Part shown: positions 43,130 through 49,690 of the stretch, piece after piece | Position numbering within the stretch: the first letter of the stretch is position 1 | Layout of the letters: each line of letters opens with the position of its first letter | NCBI GenBank assembly: GCA_036229005.1 | Contig: JAZAMN010000052.1 | Coordinates: forward strand, 128,001 to 192,000 | Direction: 5' to 3' | DNA length: 64,000 bases | Source of the DNA: Myxococcota bacterium | GTDB taxonomy: Bacteria > Myxococcota_A > UBA796 > CAJQPC01 | Program-made: the position numbers and the translations under genes | Notes under the pieces: model-generated | The model's input: only the letters and a program-made list of their open reading frames with translations | Told to the model about the DNA's origin: nothing | The model's database searches: none

Positions 43130-43543
43130 TCAAGGCCCAGAGGGCGCGTAGTTGGCTTCGTCGCAGGTGTAGAAGTTCTCGAGAGCAGGCTGGGCGATGG
43201 GCTCGAAGTAGACGTCCCAGTTCTCAAACTCCTCTTCGACGAGGGGGTCTGCGAGGGAGCAGTCCTGCTCCCGGACCGACTGCCAGTGCTCCCGAGCCGC
43301 GCACCAGTCGATGCACTGTTCGGCCTCCACAGGCGGGATCAGCTGATCGGCGAAGAAGTTGGTGCAGTAGGCCAGGTGCCGCTGCTCCAGGTGCCCGCAG
43401 TCGAAGATCAGCCAGTTGCAGGTCTCGCGCACGGTGTTGAAGCGCACCTCATCAATGTCACCCACGTCCTCGCAGCCGGTGTCGGCGGAGGAATCCACCG
43501 GTTCGGACGGGCACCCGAACAGACACAGGAAGATCAGGGCCAT
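43130..43543 (-). CDS. Small Cys-rich lipoprotein (paralogue B)
   Basis: MALIFLCLFGC; GDI, C..LI.C, C.DWCAARE, FY.C shared with 43534-43917; overlaps the upstream stop. Confidence 0.7.
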   Translation of the reverse strand: MALIFLCLFGCPSEPVDSSADTGCEDVGDIDEVRFNTVRETCNWLIFDCGHLEQRHLAYCTNFFADQLIPPVEAEQCIDWCAAREHWQSVREQDCSLADPLVEEEFENWDVYFEPIAQPALENFYTCDEANYAPSGP

Positions 43544-43917
43544 TGGGTCTCCCCACAGATGTAGAAGGGAGCCGGCTCGTCCTCGTTGTAGGTGGTCAGA
43601 TCTGGAGACGCGTAGCACTCCACGTCTTCCCAGAGCTTGTAGGCCTCTCTGGCCGCGCACCAGTCAAAGCACCAGCCCTGATCAGGGCCGTCGTAGATGG
43701 CGCTGTTCGCCTGCCCCAGGTAGTTCACGCACTCGTAGTAGTCCAGATCTGGCTCGACGCACTCGATCAGGTAGAGACAGTGCTCCTTGTGCCAACGCAT
43801 GAGGAACCGAGTGATGTCGCCTGGCTCGGAGCAGTCCTGGGGCGCGGTGTCGACGCTTTCCTCCATCAAATCGATAGAAGCCGAGTCGCCACATGCGAAA
43901 TACAAGAAAAACCACAT
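43534..43917 (-). CDS. Small Cys-rich lipoprotein (paralogue A)
   Basis: MWFFLYFAC start 2 nt after the upstream TAG; WCFDWCAARE motif. Confidence 0.7.
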   Translation of the reverse strand: MWFFLYFACGDSASIDLMEESVDTAPQDCSEPGDITRFLMRWHKEHCLYLIECVEPDLDYYECVNYLGQANSAIYDGPDQGWCFDWCAAREAYKLWEDVECYASPDLTTYNEDEPAPFYICGETQWP

Positions 43918-43919
43918 GA

Positions 43920-46272
43920 CTACTGATCCTCGCACACGCTCTCAGATATCCTCACACCATCGGCCGGAATCTGTGGAGGGTTTCCGGTCGTCCCATCCAC
44001 CGGCGAGTACTCATCACAGTCGGCGCCCCCAGCACCAGTGAACTTGAACGAACAGCCCACGCCTTTCCGCTCCGCGGAGATATGGGCCCACACGTCTCCG
44101 GGCCAGTCGATCTGCACATCCAGTTCTACCTCATTGGTGGCGGCTGAGATAACCTCAATGCTCACCGTCGCAGTCGCATTGCGAAGATCTGTCTCTGAGT
44201 CCTCCGCCAGGATTGCCAAGAGACCCTCATCCAAGCTGTCGAGGATGATGTCACCAACCGGGACATCCGTCCATACGTAGGAGTTGGTCGAAGAATCAAA
44301 GGCCCCAGAGCATGTGTCCGGTAGGTACAACGAAGTTCCCGACGGAATGGAATTCGCGGCATACTGAATCTGGTCCACTTCGCCCAAGGCCACAGCCGCC
44401 GAAAGGAGGGCGTCGCAACCGATTCCATAGTTCACACTCGTATCCAGCAAGTCCATCATGCACGGCTCAGAGCCGCCCGCCTCAGACACGTTCAGATACA
44501 GAGGCTTCTGAAACAGGACCACGGTCTCCCCAGCGTCCTCCCAGACCACGATCTCCGCAGTTCTGTCGACGAACTCAGTAGTATCTTCTTTCCACTTCTG
44601 AGTATCCACCTTCCACCAGCCAGTGAGCTCGGGACAAGCCCCGATAGATGAGGTGTTGGTCGCGGTAGCGCGTGTAAGCGCGGGCATATCATTGGCCGGC
44701 TGCGAAATGACCAAATCACCCCACAGGCGCTCTGCGATATAGCCGCTGGACATGCTCTCGCCGAAGCGATAGCCGGGGCCACCAAAGGGATCCACCACGG
44801 CCGACACAAAGCCCGTTGGGTCGAGACCGTCGGGCTGAGCAGCGAAAAGGGCCACCGCTCCTTGGTCCGAACCCATTCCCGGGATGCCGACTGCGATGTC
44901 GTTGAGCAGCGACGCGTCTGAATAGTACTGCCCGTTCTTGTCAGATGCGACAAAGTTTCCGACAGCTACAGACTCTCCGAGTCGATTGCCGGACGAGGAC
45001 AGCCCAATGGAGGACCCAGTAAGACAGGTGGTCGACTGCACGGCGAGGAGGGAAGCCTCAGCGAAGTCCGTGTCGATCAAGAACTGGCACACGGCACCAG
45101 CGTCTGGCTTGGTCGTCCCATAGGTCACGTCGTATCCAGGTATGCCGACCAAGAGGCCATGCTTCTTGGTCATCAACTCGTCATCTGGGGAGTAGATGAT
45201 CGGGCCGCTCGCCAGGGAATGACCAAAGTCATCGTCCATCGGGCTACTGTCAAGTGATGTATCTCCATTCCGTCTGACGTTCAGCCCGATGGGGTAGACG
45301 GGGGTCGAGACGCCATAGCCCCCCTGCCCCCGGAACACCCAGACGGCTCCTCCACTTGTTCCGTACGGCGCAGCGACAATCAGGTCCGGCCAGCCCTGTC
45401 CGTCATTGTCAACGTTGTCTACGATGATCTCCGAGCCAAACCCCCAGTGGTCGGTGGGGTTGGGGTTGGGGATGCTCATTACCCAAGTGAATGGACTCGA
45501 TCCCCGCTCCGCTGCTGTGGGGTCGACCTCGAAGATCTCTACACGCTCGTCTCCGGGAGCCCCAACGGCGATCCACTCCGGTGCCAGCTCTGCTCGGTCC
45601 CATGGCGCATCCTCGTCAACCTCGTCTCGACTGGCGATGGCGATGGCGGCACCAAACTCAGAGCCCAGCATGGGAGTGGGGTCAACGACCTCGCCCGCAT
45701 AGACCAGAATGGGCTCAACAGACGGGTCATTGTTCGGCTCAAATAGGTATACACCACCAACAGTGGAGCCTGTCCCGGTATCAGGAGCCCCAATTAACAG
45801 CTCTTCGCCACAGGCGTAATCCGGTCCCCCCGGCCATGCCTCCCGGCAGTCATTGATGTTCCCTGCAGCCAACTCCGCTCCAAACTGATACTCAACGCCA
45901 CCAGACGCTCCCCCGAAAACGGCCGGTACGTCTGACGGCACAATCTGCATGACATTGGCACTGGAGCCATCGAATTGCGAGCTCGACAGGTTGGCTTCCA
46001 TGATCTGAACGAAGCCTTCGAGGTCACCGTCAGGTGCAGATCCAAGAGCCACCAGACGCAGCGCGTCCGGTTCAGCGGGGGAAGATCCCACACTAAGGAT
46101 AGCGCTTGCAGCACCAAGCTCCATCGAGTGAGAGTAGGGAGAAGAGATCCCCGCCGCGTAGTCTCCAATGTCCGGTTCGCACAGGAGCGGATCTACCCCC
46201 TGCGCTGGCTCGTCCACGCCGTTGTCTCTACAGGCGAGAAGAGAAGAGAAGAGAAGAGAAGAGAAGATTCAT
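43920..46272 (-). CDS. FG-GAP (integrin-alpha-like propeller) lipoprotein, frameshifted in its signal peptide (long open frame 43920-46217)
   Basis: FGAELAAG...ELLIGAP, FGAAIA...AVGAPG, FGS...DLIVAAP, LGESVAVG, DIAVGIPG; LAC lipobox at 46230-46238 is out of frame with ATG 46272. Confidence 0.75.
46236..46265 (-). repeat. (TTCTC)6 simple sequence repeat within the signal-peptide coding region
   Basis: Six perfect GAGAA units on the plus strand at 46236-46265. Confidence 0.95.
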
Positions 46273-46361
46273 CACGCCCCCAACGGAGTCTTCAAGGTGT
46301 TCTCCGAGAGTAGAACTCACCTCGCCCACCCAGTCAAGGAGACTTGCATCACCGTCAAACC

Positions 46362-47321
46362 TCACCCTGCCAGCGCCCCCCCACAGCTCGACCCCGCCCC
46401 CGCCGTACACCCCAGACAGTGCCGGGCCACCGCGATGCCCTCCCCCTGGAGTTGGGCCACGTCGTCCAGCTCGAAGAGGGTCCGGGGCCCGTTGGGGAGG
46501 GGCATCTCCAGCATCTGGTTGAAGTCGCAGTCGTAGAGGTTGCCCTGCCAGTCCACGCTGATCAGGTGTCGACACATCAGGCCGGGCAGGGTCGCGGGGT
46601 TGAAGCTGGAGCGCAACAGGTGCAGGTAGTCGTCCAGCTTGCCCTGCCGCTTGAGCTGGCGTTCAAAGCGCGCAATGGGCATGTTGGCCAGGGTCAGCAG
46701 GTCGTTGAAGACCACGCCGTGGTCACGCAGCAGGCGCAGGCTGTAGTCGGCCTGCAGGCCGGCCTGGGAGCCGGGCAGGAAGGCGCCGCCGGGGTTGTAG
46801 ACCAGGTCCAGGGCCAGGCCGCTCCCGGGCTTGCCGTAGCCCAGGCGGTTGAGGGTCCGAAGCCCGTCGATGGAGCGCTCGAAGACGCCCTTGCCGCGCT
46901 GCTTGTCGACGTTGTCCTGGGTGTAGCAGGGCAGGCTCGCCACGATCTGGACGCCATTGTCGGCCAGGAACTGTGCGAGGTCCTCCTGGCCCGGCTCCGA
47001 GAGGATGGTCAGGTTGCAGCGGTCGGTGACCTTGCGGTCCAGTGACCTCGCCGAGACGACGAGTCGCCGAAAGTGGGGGTTGAGCTCGGGAGCCCCGCCG
47101 GTGAGGTCCAGGTGCTCCAGCGCCGGGTTCTGCTCCAGCACCTCAATCACCCGGTCGATGGTGCGCGCGTCCATCATCTCGGTGCGCGCAGGCGAGGCGT
47201 CCACGTGGCAGTGGGTGCAGGCCTGGTTGCACTTGCGGCCCAGGTTGACCTGAAGCCAGGAGGGCAGCGCGCGGGTCAGCGGAGGCAGGCCGTTGGCAGT
47301 GAGGGTGGCTGAGAAAGACAT
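46362..47321 (-). CDS. arsS: Arsenosugar-biosynthesis-type radical SAM protein ArsS (DUF3641)
   Basis: LQVNLGRKCNQACTHCHV, DLTGGAPELNP, SLPCY, LMCR..ISVDWQG.LYDCDFNQML, HCLGCTAGAGSSCGGAL. Confidence 0.88.
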   Translation of the reverse strand: MSFSATLTANGLPPLTRALPSWLQVNLGRKCNQACTHCHVDASPARTEMMDARTIDRVIEVLEQNPALEHLDLTGGAPELNPHFRRLVVSARSLDRKVTDRCNLTILSEPGQEDLAQFLADNGVQIVASLPCYTQDNVDKQRGKGVFERSIDGLRTLNRLGYGKPGSGLALDLVYNPGGAFLPGSQAGLQADYSLRLLRDHGVVFNDLLTLANMPIARFERQLKRQGKLDDYLHLLRSSFNPATLPGLMCRHLISVDWQGNLYDCDFNQMLEMPLPNGPRTLFELDDVAQLQGEGIAVARHCLGCTAGAGSSCGGALAG

Positions 47322-47392
47322 CCAAGGCTCCAAAGGGGCGAGGATGCCACGGAGGGGGGCGGGTTGCGGGGGGAGGCGCGGCTGGGCGCTGC

Positions 47393-47640
47393 GCGGCCGG
47401 GGTCAGGGGCCGGGGCTCAGGAGTCAGGTATCAGGTATCAGGACGGCTCGGGAGGGCTCGGCGACAGGCGACAGGCGACAGGCGACAGGCATGACGGAGA
47501 GCCAGGTGCAGGCGGTGAGGCTCTGACCGGCAGCGCATCACGCGGGGGCGGCTTCAGCGCCGGCGCTGGGCGGCCGGGGTCAGGGGCCGGGGCTCAGGAG
47601 TCAGGATCGGGTCTCAGGAGTCAGGTATCAGGTATCGGGC
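47393..47640. repeat. Heptamer-tract repeat module, opposite orientation to the downstream array
   Basis: 36-nt direct repeat at 47393-47428 and 47570-47605, CAGGTAT tracts, (GGCGACA)4 at 47460-47487. Confidence 0.85.
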
Positions 47641-47724
47641 ATCACGCCGGGGCAGGGTCCAGCGCCGACTCTGGCCCGGGCTGGCAGCACTTGCCGCCAC
47701 CTCCGGCGCCTCCCCTGCCCCAGA

Positions 47725-48005
47725 GTAGGCTGCCACCCCCAAACCTCACCTTCCACCTACGTCATCGCCGGTTGCCGGTCGCCGGTCGCCAGTCGCCGCC
47801 CAACACCTGACCTCCGATACCTGATACCTGATACCCACCCCGCACCAACGTCGGCTGCCACGCCCAAACCACCCCTTCCTCCTGCGTCATCGCCGGTCGC
47901 CAGTCGCCGCCCGACACCTGACCTCCGATACCTGATACCCGATACCCACCCGCCCCCAACGTAGGCTGCCACCCCCAAACCGACCCTTCCTCCTACGTCA
48001 TCGCC
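47725..48005. repeat. Tandem 111-125 nt units containing (G/A)GTCGCC and C(C/T)GATAC heptamer tracts; third unit interrupted by IS110
   Basis: Unit starts at 47725, 47850 and 47961; lengths differ by two heptamers. Confidence 0.88.
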
Positions 48006-48016
48006 TATGACTGTTT

Positions 48017-48210
48017 TTGGTGGTTTTCCACCTGCACGCACAGCACCCCATCACCTACAAGTCGCCCGCCCCGTTGAGGGCTAGGACCGGACCCGGGATG
48101 GGGTGCTGCTGTGGGCAAGAGGGCCTTAGTGATGCCTTGTCCCACGACCGATGTTGACAACGGACCTGTCGGAGAACTTCATAGGCGCGCCCCACATGCC
48201 CACAGCAGCG
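48017..48210 (+). ncRNA. Predicted IS110 bridge RNA
   Basis: 5' hairpin 48019-48032; 12-bp stem 48041-52/48097-108 enclosing the target loop; 13-bp stem 48105-17/48197-209 enclosing the donor loop; guide segments match the junctions. Confidence 0.8.
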
Positions 48211-48231
48211 TGCTCCAACACAGGAGCATTC

Positions 48232-49479
48232 GTGATCTATCTGGGAATCGACTGGAGCAAGTCAGAAATCGTCGTCGCAGTCAGCCAGGGGGGCGCTAAG
48301 CCCCGGCATCTGGGCAGCTTCGACCGCAGCCGAAAGGGGGTTGAGGGGCTCGTCAGGCGCCTTCGAAAGCAGGGCGCGTGTGGAGCTGATGCCATCGTCG
48401 GCGTGATCGAAGCGGGGGCGCCAGGGTGGCAGGCGCTGCTGCATGACGCGGGCATCGAGCTCCACGTCGCAGACCCCAAGCAGGCCAAGTCCTTCGCGGC
48501 CTCGCTGGGCTCCTCGGGTGCAAAGGACGACCGCCGAGACGCCGCTGCCCTGTGCCTGATGGCCCAGAGTCCGGTGCATCGTGGGGAGCGCTGGACGCCG
48601 CACGCCGGCGTGCACGCGCAGCTGGTGGTGCTGTCCAAGGGGCACCAGACCCTCAGTGAAGAGAGCACACGCGCGCGCCAGCGCCTCCGCGCCCTCCTCC
48701 GAGAGGAGAACACGGCGGTGGAGGCGCTGATCCGAAGCCTCGACGTCCACTGGTGTCACGCGCTGCTCCAGGCCTACCCCACCGCCTGGCACCTGGCGGC
48801 AGCCACCCCGGAAGCGCTCGATGCAGTCCTGGGTGGGACGCGCTGCCCAATGGACAAGCGCGCGGCGCTTGTCCAGGTCCTCGCCGATGCCCGCAGGTCG
48901 TCCTGGCAGTCCGAGGGACTGGCCCAGGTGCAGGGGTTGGTCATCCAGCAGTTGCTCACCCAGGTCTCCCTCCTCAAGGCCCAGCTCAAGGTCCTCGACG
49001 ACCGGATCGACGCCTGCCTGCAGCAGCTCACTGAGGCACAGCACATCATGCAGATCAATGGCATCGGCCGGCAGCTGACAGCGCGGATCCTGCGCTTTCT
49101 GGGGCCTCTCGAGGGCTCTGGGCAACGGGACCACGCGTCCATCGCGCTGGGCGTTGCGCCGGTGTTCCAGGGCTCGGGGACGGACCGGATGGGTCGGCCC
49201 AAAGGGCAGGTGCGAATGCGGAAGTCAGTCGACCCGCACGCGCGCGCCACGGGCTATCTGCTGGGGCGCCTGGCGACGCAGAACCTGGACTGGGCGCGGG
49301 CCAAGTACGCGGACGCGCTGGCGCGCGGCAAGAACTCAGCGACCGCGTACCGCATCGTCGCCCGCAGCATGCTGCGCATCATCACGGCAATCCAGAAGAC
49401 AGGGCAGCCCTACGACCACGACCGCTACGTGCGGCGCTTGAAGGCCAACGGCGTGCCGTGGGCGATGGGCCTTGGGTGA
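48232..49479 (+). CDS. IS110-family DEDD transposase/recombinase
   Basis: AGGAG RBS, GTG start; YLGIDWSK, IEAG, AKDDRRDA (DEDD); INGIG and GVAPVFQGSG with the conserved Ser. Confidence 0.93.
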   Translation: MIYLGIDWSKSEIVVAVSQGGAKPRHLGSFDRSRKGVEGLVRRLRKQGACGADAIVGVIEAGAPGWQALLHDAGIELHVADPKQAKSFAASLGSSGAKDDRRDAAALCLMAQSPVHRGERWTPHAGVHAQLVVLSKGHQTLSEESTRARQRLRALLREENTAVEALIRSLDVHWCHALLQAYPTAWHLAAATPEALDAVLGGTRCPMDKRAALVQVLADARRSSWQSEGLAQVQGLVIQQLLTQVSLLKAQLKVLDDRIDACLQQLTEAQHIMQINGIGRQLTARILRFLGPLEGSGQRDHASIALGVAPVFQGSGTDRMGRPKGQVRMRKSVDPHARATGYLLGRLATQNLDWARAKYADALARGKNSATAYRIVARSMLRIITAIQKTGQPYDHDRYVRRLKANGVPWAMGLG

Positions 49480-49510: not shown

Positions 49511-49597
49511 GGTCCGGTCCCCAGTCGCCGGTCTCCGGTCGCCGCTCCCCTGCAGGGCCCCACCGATACCCGATACCCGACACCCGACACCCGATAC
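49511..49597. repeat. Continuation of the heptamer array right of the IS
   Basis: GGTCCCC AGTCGCC GGTCTCC GGTCGCC then five CCGA(T/C)AC copies at 49563-49597. Confidence 0.85.
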
Positions 49598-49690
49598 CCG
49601 GGCTGCCCGACCTGAACAGCCGGTCACACACTTGTTGGGTCCGGTCCCCCGCCGAGTCGGTTAGGGCCGGAGACCCAAAGCGAGGAACGA

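What the first reader, a model, noticed from the sequence alone, without database searches (positions are those of the whole stretch)
46215..46275. Opa-like pentanucleotide phase-variation switch in a lipoprotein signal peptide, currently OFF
Seen (minus strand): ATG AAT C (TTCTC)6 GCC TGT AGA GAC. With six units the ATG frame stops after MNLLFSSLLFSSRL, and the FG-GAP frame with its LAC lipobox has no start (TGA at 46269-71). With 4 units it reads MNLLFSSLLAC, matching this genome's short lipoprotein leaders; with 7 it reads MNLLFSSLLFSSLLAC. Established: Neisseria opa genes switch by slippage of the same CTCTT pentamer in the leader. Inference: convergent ON/OFF phase variation of an integrin-like surface protein in a probably free-living bacterium.
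Basis: partly seen in the sequence, partly recalled or inferred. Interest (0 to 1): 0.85.

Follow-up and report, generated by a model that had tools for sequence, protein, structure and literature searches.

The report
Opa-type repeat switch in marine myxobacterium
Six copies of a 5-base repeat inside the export signal put a surface-lipoprotein gene of an uncultured marine bacterium out of frame, and because related species and many unrelated bacteria carry the same repeat at the same spot in varying numbers, it likely works as the random on/off switch known from gonococcal Opa genes.

Summary
Observation confirmed. ATG 46272 is followed by (TTCTC)6. The ATG frame stops after 14 residues, and the 770-aa FG-GAP lipoprotein lies one base out of frame (in frame at 4 or 7 units). 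The tract is not chance. The 6.4-Mb genome has only two pentamer tracts of four or more units; both are TTCTC directly behind a lipoprotein start, and the second (trypsin-like protein, 5 units) is in frame. Two congeners keep a perfect tract (6 and 7 units, both out of frame) in homologous genes; in the pair measured, synonymous sites are saturated and the frame is intact. A homologue from another genus has a plain leader. A scan of 185,579 species genomes gave 50 ATG-(TTCTC)4+ loci; 34 sit before a long frame (14 on, 20 off) in unrelated proteins from at least five phyla, and five orthologue sets include both states. Best reading: opa-type slipped-strand phase variation, evolved repeatedly (about 75%). 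Not shown: mixed alleles in reads, or an in-frame allele of this gene. The mechanism is known from Neisseria; I found no paper on it outside Neisseria. This scan noted the same repeat before in two other genomes.

The parts
46277..46281 (-). G-rich ribosome-binding-like run (GGGGG) 4 nt before the ATG
   Evidence: Sequence; similar G runs precede the ATG at the second locus and in both congeners. Function inferred.
46270..46272 (-). Start codon ATG of the leader
   Evidence: an ATG stands just before the tract in congeners G001 and G002 too
46236..46267 (-). Perfect (TTCTC)6.4 tract encoding the hydrophobic core of the signal peptide; inferred slippage switch, out of frame at 6 units
   Evidence: longest pentamer tract in the genome
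46230..46238 (-). Lipobox L-A-C; the Cys codon 46232-46230 would be the lipidated first residue
   Evidence: 26 of 75 listed family members carry an N-terminal lipobox by a strict regex
46228..46230 (-). TAG that ends the out-of-frame 14-residue product
43920..46268 (-). Uninterrupted frame for a 770-aa mature lipoprotein: predicted FG-GAP beta-propeller (about residues 10-525) plus a Cys-containing C-terminal part of no known family; GC3 0.67 against 0.92-0.97 in three housekeeping neighbours
43534..43917 (-). Small Cys-rich lipoprotein 1, starting 2 nt after the FG-GAP stop; likely the same operon
   Evidence: no Pfam family over cut-off
43130..43543 (-). Small Cys-rich lipoprotein 2, paralogue of 1 (25% identity over 106 aa, E 3e-6), overlapping its stop

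Best explanation
A perfect run of six TTCTC units encodes the hydrophobic core of a lipoprotein signal peptide and leaves the 770-residue surface protein out of frame, and it likely acts as a reversible on/off switch by gaining or losing units during replication, as in Neisseria opa. Shown: the anatomy, the out-of-frame state, an intact coding frame, length differences between related species, and both states among orthologues elsewhere. Inferred: slipped-strand mispairing changes the unit number often; one unit gained here (7) or two lost (4) gives a complete leader; every in-frame length gives a usable export signal because the repeat reads L-F-S-S-L whatever the phase, with no stop, Pro or charge; a subpopulation therefore displays the protein. 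The likely benefit is bet-hedging over a surface structure (phage or grazer recognition, or attachment), which is untested. The same repeat appears to have been recruited independently in many lineages.
For: (1) Both long pentamer tracts of the genome are TTCTC in lipoprotein leaders of unrelated low-GC genes, one off (this) and one on (C32, 5 units, 434-aa trypsin-like protein). (2) 2 of 3 congeners have the tract behind the ATG of a homologue: G002 6 units, G001 7 units, both out of frame but one unit from in frame. Against G002, 330 codons give pS 0.78 (saturated) and pN 0.30 with no stop, so neither purity nor the frame decayed over a long time. (3) G015, another genus, has a plain in-frame leader. 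(4) A paralogue in G001 and G002 is put out of frame by a G run in its leader, with dN/dS 0.07 over 267 codons. (5) 34 of 50 GTDB loci precede a long frame, 14 on and 20 off; 32 of these 34 are at a gene 5' end, against 12.8% (924 of 7200) for random ATGA sites. 28 of the 34 show a lipobox- or cleavage-like site by crude regex, 13 on and 15 off. (6) Five orthologue sets hold both states (L034/L055, L043 with L054/L059/L071, L058/L064, L063/L075, L068/L069). (7) In a 151-genome family sample 5 of 6 TTCTC tracts lie in leaders; the same-composition, Pro-coding control TTTCC gave 2 tracts, neither in a leader. (8) Opa switches by this pentamer at about 1e-3 per cell per generation (PMC3960869, passages); a 4-unit pentamer in Haemophilus switches at high rate (PMC2651432, passages).
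Against: No allele mixture was seen: the read tool skipped 46228-46273 and all four runs were contigs. No in-frame allele of this gene was found: all 3 tract-bearing FG-GAP genes are off, and 0 of 75 listed family proteins carry a repeated SLLFS leader. TTCTC tracts are not always leaders: the 5 other tracts in a 401-genome phylum sample were not, nor 3 of the 4 other tracts in the order sample, and 12 of the 50 GTDB loci have no long frame. The GTDB loci are not independent (orthologue sets; two are the congeners' own tracts), and the family sample was centred on a genome chosen for having a tract. The G002 poly-G paralogue has a second frameshift and may be decaying. Only one control pentamer was tested.
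Confidence: 0.75

Rival explanations
1. Non-adaptive slippage hotspot: leaders rich in Leu/Phe/Ser codons drift into TTCTC repeats, which then slip out of frame, and the out-of-frame copies are dispensable accessory genes on their way to loss. Switching may occur but is not selected for.
For: All three tract-bearing FG-GAP genes are off; the gene is accessory (no match in congener G003 at 95% completeness; an abundant strain in run X2 leaves the window right after arsS); the G002 poly-G paralogue has two frameshifts; slippage itself keeps tracts pure (own knowledge).
Against: The off frames carry no stops and show strong purifying selection despite saturated synonymous sites, which needs repeated return to on, or several recent independent slips. 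20 of 34 long-frame GTDB loci are off with open frames. Tracts reach 11-15 units in leaders, which selection for steady expression should remove.
Confidence: 0.15
2. The gene is expressed all the time by another route: initiation at GTG 46217 or ATC 46268, or ribosomal or transcriptional slippage on the repeat.
For: ATC 46268 is in the long frame 8 nt behind the G run and would give a complete leader. NCBI calls the gene from GTG 46217 (P0007). A reference title seen in PMC3960869 (Belland 1989; title only) names ribosomal frameshifting in opa expression, so low-level leak is plausible.
Against: GTG 46217 lies behind the lipobox, has no G-rich site upstream and would leave a Cys-rich protein without an export signal. 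No near-cognate start stands at that place in G001 or G002. The shift needed differs between homologues (+1 here, -1 in G002, +1 in G001; arithmetic), unlike a programmed frameshift.
Confidence: 0.06
3. Assembly artefact: the true allele has 4 or 7 units and the assembler miscounted.
For: The genome is a metagenome assembly; contigs in runs X1 and X2 end inside or at the tract.
Against: The tract is only 32 bp; two other species show out-of-frame tracts independently; off states occur in a RefSeq isolate genome (L058) and in a record titled as a chromosome-level assembly (L068); the second tract of this genome assembled in frame.
Confidence: 0.04

Closest known systems
Neisseria gonorrhoeae / N. 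meningitidis opa genes (CTCTT coding repeat in the leader peptide; PMC3960869 and bioRxiv 10.1101/2020.09.16.300947, passages read)
   Same: Identical pentamer on the coding strand, inside the signal-peptide codons; unit number sets the frame of a surface protein.
   Different: Target is a lipoprotein with a predicted FG-GAP propeller, not an Opa outer-membrane barrel (barrel fold recalled); the tract starts 4 nt after ATG and makes up almost the whole leader; in frame at 4 or 7 units against 6, 9 or 12 for opa; two unrelated single genes rather than a paralogue family; a 70% GC marine bacterium with a 6.4-Mb genome; switching not measured.
Simple-sequence contingency loci in general (Haemophilus penta- and tetranucleotide tracts, PMC2651432; Gardnerella nanH3 poly-C beside the signal peptide, bioRxiv 10.1101/2020.09.16.300947; passages read)
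   Same: Unstable repeat with a unit not divisible by three near the 5' end of a gene; off alleles give a short peptide.
   Different: Those cases are host-associated bacteria with one or many loci each; here two loci in an environmental genome, and the repeat itself is the export signal.
FG-GAP / integrin-alpha beta-propeller proteins (PF01839)
   Same: Profile matches integrin-alpha chains (best E 1.2e-8); Atlas model aligns with FG-GAP clusters (TM 0.54 by query, 0.77 by target).
   Different: Pfam hit below cut-off; lipid-anchored rather than transmembrane; own family of 65 clusters at E<=1e-30 with a C-terminal part of no known family; no ligand or partner known.

Membership tests
Opa-type coding-repeat phase variation (works like) | Perfect CTCTT tandem repeat on the coding strand | tested here: met
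   6.4 perfect copies, 46267-46236
Opa-type coding-repeat phase variation (works like) | Repeat lies in the signal-peptide codons and its length sets the frame | tested here: met
   ATG 4 nt upstream, lipobox directly downstream, out of frame at 6
Opa-type coding-repeat phase variation (works like) | Downstream gene intact and under purifying selection | tested here: met
   782 open codons; pN 0.30 against pS 0.78 versus G002
Opa-type coding-repeat phase variation (works like) | Unit number varies, with on and off alleles of the same gene | tested here: inconclusive
   6, 6 and 7 units across three species, all off; on/off pairs seen only for other genes; read tool skips the tract
Opa-type coding-repeat phase variation (works like) | High-frequency reversible switching within a clone | not testable with these tools
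   Needs raw reads, a culture or a reporter
Opa protein family (membership) | Opa outer-membrane barrel domain | tested here: not met
   No Opa family hit in Pfam or NCBIfam; matches are to FG-GAP propellers
Bacterial lipoprotein (signal peptidase II substrate) | Hydrophobic leader ending in a lipobox Cys | tested here: met
   L-A-C after the tract; matches 260 regex-defined leaders of this genome and lipoboxes of relatives; by pattern only, no SignalP run
FG-GAP beta-propeller proteins | FG-GAP repeats above Pfam cut-off | tested here: not met
   18.2 bits against cut-off 22.1; relative P0016 carries precomputed PF01839 and PF14312 hits
FG-GAP beta-propeller proteins | Integrin-alpha-like propeller fold | tested here: inconclusive
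   Atlas model of low confidence (pLDDT 0.55) aligns with FG-GAP clusters, TM 0.54/0.77; profile hits integrin alpha; no model of my own was obtained
Myxococcota (host taxon) | MYXO-CTERM sorting domains | tested here: met
   32 matches over cut-off, 0 of 14 control genomes; no 16S gene found in the assembly, so the phylum label is indirect

The most novel reading that the evidence does not exclude
(TTCTC)n is a general-purpose, repeatedly re-invented phase-variation cassette of bacteria: because it doubles as a signal-peptide core at any length, environmental lineages from at least five phyla have placed the very repeat of gonococcal opa in the leaders of unrelated secreted proteins, so opa is one case of a wide class that annotation hides by calling off genes from a later start. 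In this myxobacterial genus the switch has been kept on one surface lipoprotein family across saturated synonymous divergence, pointing to lasting frequency-dependent pressure from phages or grazers in seawater.
Probability: 0.6. Interest if true: 0.72.

Novelty: new member of a known kind. Interest (0 to 1): 0.58.

Why it matters
Repeat-driven phase variation is documented mostly in host-adapted pathogens (short-unit repeats are most abundant there; PMC4692102, passages). A long-kept opa-type switch in a marine myxobacterial genus, and the same pentamer in about 30 leaders of unrelated environmental bacteria, would show that the design arises again and again and would mark the surface proteins under fluctuating selection in the wild. 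It also gives a test in culture: Phaeodactylibacter xiamenensis KD52 (L058) carries a 7-unit off allele whose orthologue in a relative is on. Practically, off alleles are annotated without their signal peptide (P0007 here), so such genes are mislabelled as cytoplasmic.

Tried and rejected
Counting alleles in reads: four runs laid, all contigs; the tool skipped the repeat, and pieces in X1 and X2 end inside or at it, which either allele mixture or other organisms' microsatellites would cause, so no inference is drawn. No RNA holder listed. Search for an in-frame allele of this gene among proteins: none; truncated starts in P0011, P0012, P0018, P0019 are not taken as off states because gene callers also miss the in-frame plain leader of G015 (P0015). 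Metagenome pattern scan: 5 loci, none of this family; 4 without a convincing gene, 1 (L026) a lipoprotein leader with 3 units in frame. Viral contigs: 7 loci, none with an evident signal peptide before a long frame. Empty-site junction from the X2 loose end: no match in window or genome. Promoter, terminator and RNA structure near the start: nothing above shuffles; the leader folds worse than shuffles (z +2.4). A wider switch repertoire in this genome: a scan of mono-, di-, tetra-, penta- and heptamer tracts in lipoprotein leaders gave only the two TTCTC loci plus 3 weak candidates, which I rejected or left open. Trypsin-like gene not found with this query in 21 family genomes. No structure model of my own was obtained. 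Mrazek 2007 (PNAS) was not held. The idea that 5-nt loops escape mismatch repair is recalled; one search and two papers gave no passage on it; MutS1 is present.

Full report
Observation. On the minus strand a GGGGG run (46281-46277) precedes ATG 46272, then AATC, six TTCTC units (46265-46236) and GCC TGT. Tandem Repeats Finder gives 6.4 perfect copies. The ATG frame stops at 46230-46228 after 14 residues. The long frame is closed by TGA 46271-46269 and runs 782 codons to 43920. With 37 bases between the start and the GCC codon, 4 or 7 units would be in frame.

The gene. The mature protein would be 770 residues from the lipobox Cys. Pfam gives one FG-GAP hit below cut-off and NCBIfam none. A 10-sequence profile matches integrin-alpha chains (54 sequences at E<=0.01, best 1.2e-8, short stretches). 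The Atlas's low-confidence model aligns with FG-GAP clusters. The profile finds 65 clusters at E<=1e-30. Of 75 listed proteins 26 have an N-terminal lipobox by a strict regex and none has a repeated SLLFS leader. So this is a lipoprotein family with a predicted propeller, and GTG 46217, from which NCBI calls the gene, drops a conserved feature. The gene has GC3 0.67 against 0.92-0.97 for arsS, glyQ and ppdK. It is followed closely by two small paralogous Cys-rich lipoprotein genes and preceded by arsS. The genome has 32 MYXO-CTERM matches, so it is probably Myxococcota; no 16S gene was found. Runs holding half or more of the sampled words are two seawater or marine metagenomes from two studies, with 528-base pieces of the gene free of differences; the best holder may be the source sample.

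More than chance. Among 20 perfect pentamer tracts of 3 or more copies in 6.4 Mb, only two exceed 3.6 copies. The second, on contig C32, is (TTCTC)5 directly behind the ATG of a 434-aa trypsin-like lipoprotein (GC 0.57) and is in frame, reading MSILFSSLLFSC. It lies in an array of small lipoprotein genes. In the order, 6 of 154 genomes have three or more units. Short leaders are the norm here: 225 of 260 regex candidates have 9-12 residues up to the Cys.

Relatives. Two of three congeners carry the tract right behind the ATG of a homologous gene: G002 with 6 units and G001 with 7, both out of frame and each one unit from an in-frame length. Their upstream neighbour differs from that in this genome. 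Against G002, 330 codons show 58% identity, pS 0.78 and pN 0.30: synonymous sites are saturated while the tract is perfect and the frame open. Only 69 codons of the G001 gene are assembled. G015, from another genus, has a 40% identical gene with a plain in-frame leader. A paralogue in G001 and G002 is out of frame at a G run in its leader (9 and 7 G), with dN/dS 0.07; the G002 copy has a second shift. The shifts needed to read through the three TTCTC tracts are +1, -1 and +1, which argues against a programmed frameshift.

The same design elsewhere. One scan of 185,579 species genomes for ATGA, 1-8 bases, (TTCTC)4 gave 50 loci (I do not know whether 50 is a display limit, and other start contexts were not scanned). 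38 of 50 have a long or run-off frame behind the tract (15 on, 23 off). 34 remain when the second-best frame must be under 60 codons (14 on, 20 off), and 32 of these 34 lie at the 5' end of that frame, against 924 of 7200 random ATGA sites in the same loci (the two tests use slightly different windows). 28 of the 34 show a lipobox- or cleavage-like site by crude regex (13 on, 15 off); the regex also fired on 2 of the 12 short-frame loci. By record titles these 28 come from Bacteroidota, Binatia, Bdellovibrionales, Haliangium-labelled myxobacteria and a Leptospiraceae bin; a Fimbriimonadaceae and a Parcubacteria locus look similar but missed the regex. Two of the 50 are the congeners' own tracts. 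The targets are unrelated apart from orthologue sets: 8 of 27 scanned proteins had Pfam hits (S8 and M12 peptidases, TPR, PEGA, GDSL, esterase, DUF302, DUF7948). Five orthologue sets include both states, with 4-15 units. An on share near one third is what free switching predicts; a constitutive repeat-built leader would be almost always on. In five genomes picked from these hits all 7 tracts were the leader ones. In a 151-genome family sample centred on one of them, 5 of 6 tracts were in leaders, while TTTCC, of the same composition but coding Pro, gave 2 tracts and no leader. Against generality: the 5 other tracts in a 401-genome phylum sample were not in leaders; of 4 other tracts in the order sample only G062 looked like a leader; 7 viral loci were not.

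Why this pentamer. A pentamer repeat gives the same cyclic peptide in every frame. Of 204 stranded pentamers, 32 encode no stop, Pro, Cys or D/E/K/R, and CTCTT (L-F-S-S-L) ranks seventh in hydropathy among them. It is therefore one of few repeats that can serve as a signal-peptide core at any length. I did not test whether the other candidates are used likewise.

What is not shown. The read tool skipped 46228-46273, and all four runs are contigs, so no allele count exists. No in-frame allele of this gene was found. Three of three off has probability about 0.3 if lengths are spread evenly, so it is compatible with switching but also with the drift rival. In run X2 a contig of depth 1056 follows arsS at 98% identity and leaves the window at 46352, while the FG-GAP contig has depth 52. 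This hints that the gene is accessory in that population; contig depth is not copy number.

Comparison with the known. Opa expression is set by CTCTT repeats in the leader-peptide codons and switches at about 1e-3 per cell per generation (PMC3960869, passages); 6, 9 or 12 units are in frame (bioRxiv 10.1101/2020.09.16.300947, passages). A 4-unit pentamer in Haemophilus hsdM switches at high rate (PMC2651432, passages). PMC4692102 (passages) reports, citing others, that short-unit repeats are commonest in host-adapted pathogens and that repeats are over-represented near N-termini of prokaryotic genes, so a general signal of this kind is in print. Searches for CTCTT with phase variation listed 6 and 11 papers, by title mostly Neisseria papers and reviews; of these I read passages of three, in which CTCTT referred to opa, and saw only listings of the rest. 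Searches with Myxococcota, free-living or marine terms returned none. Searches were seen as listings. I could not read Mrazek 2007 and did not read Lin and Kussell or any supplement; genome-wide repeat tables there might list some of these tracts. This locus works like opa and is not an Opa protein. Earlier notes of this scan describe the same repeat in a Binatia lipoprotein and in Dependentiae; I met the Binatia loci independently and did not test the other.

Verdict. A real, out-of-frame, opa-type coding repeat in a lipoprotein leader. Slipped-strand phase variation is the best reading (0.75), ahead of a non-adaptive slippage hotspot (0.15), constitutive expression by another route (0.06) and assembly error (0.04). 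The mechanism is known; its long retention in a marine myxobacterial genus and its recurrence across phyla are the new part. Novelty: new member of a known kind. Interest 0.58.

Noticed in passing
L001:9634-10938 (G000:C32:77633-78937, minus): Second (TTCTC)5 leader, in frame, on a 434-aa trypsin-like lipoprotein inside an array of small paralogous lipoprotein genes; only two database relatives at 64-68% identity.
   Followed up: yes
L020:1415-1450 (G001) and L021:1420-1460 (G002): Paralogue of the FG-GAP gene with a G9 or G7 run that puts its lipoprotein leader out of frame; dN/dS 0.07 between the two; a second candidate switch type in the same family.
   Followed up: partly
P0087 (protein only): A distant family member begins with a TRSLAHSL peptide repeated about three and a half times, which looks like a translated DNA tandem repeat in the leader region; DNA not seen.
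   Followed up: no
window 43130-43917 (minus): Two small Cys-rich lipoprotein paralogues of no known family, tightly coupled to the FG-GAP gene.
   Followed up: partly
window 46352: An abundant related strain in run X2 follows arsS at 98% identity and then goes on with DNA absent from this genome, so the site after arsS looks variable.
   Followed up: partly
window 47395-48005 and 49514-49600: Heptamer-repeat blocks, including a 111-bp duplication, flank an IS110-family transposase (48151-49479); 37 such heptamer tracts occur genome-wide.
   Followed up: no
L153:2290-2330 (G000:C21:5789): (CT)5 in an in-frame lipoprotein leader of a 665-aa protein with GC 0.71; probably ordinary Leu-Ser codons.
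   Followed up: partly
L082 (G062, same order): GTG AAA (TTCTC)4 before a signal-peptide-like frame of only 58 codons; possible further switch or a broken gene.
   Followed up: no
L026:601-640: Metagenome contig (48% GC) with three TTCTC units plus a partial unit in an in-frame lipoprotein leader; possible starting stage of such a tract.
   Followed up: no
L058 and L052: Two apparently cultured Bacteroidota strains carry out-of-frame TTCTC leaders on long secreted proteins without Pfam hits in the first 500 residues; usable test organisms.
   Followed up: partly
window 46362-47333 (minus): arsS, arsenosugar radical SAM protein (TIGR04167, 437 bits), ending in Cys codons; unrelated to the switch as far as seen.
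   Followed up: no
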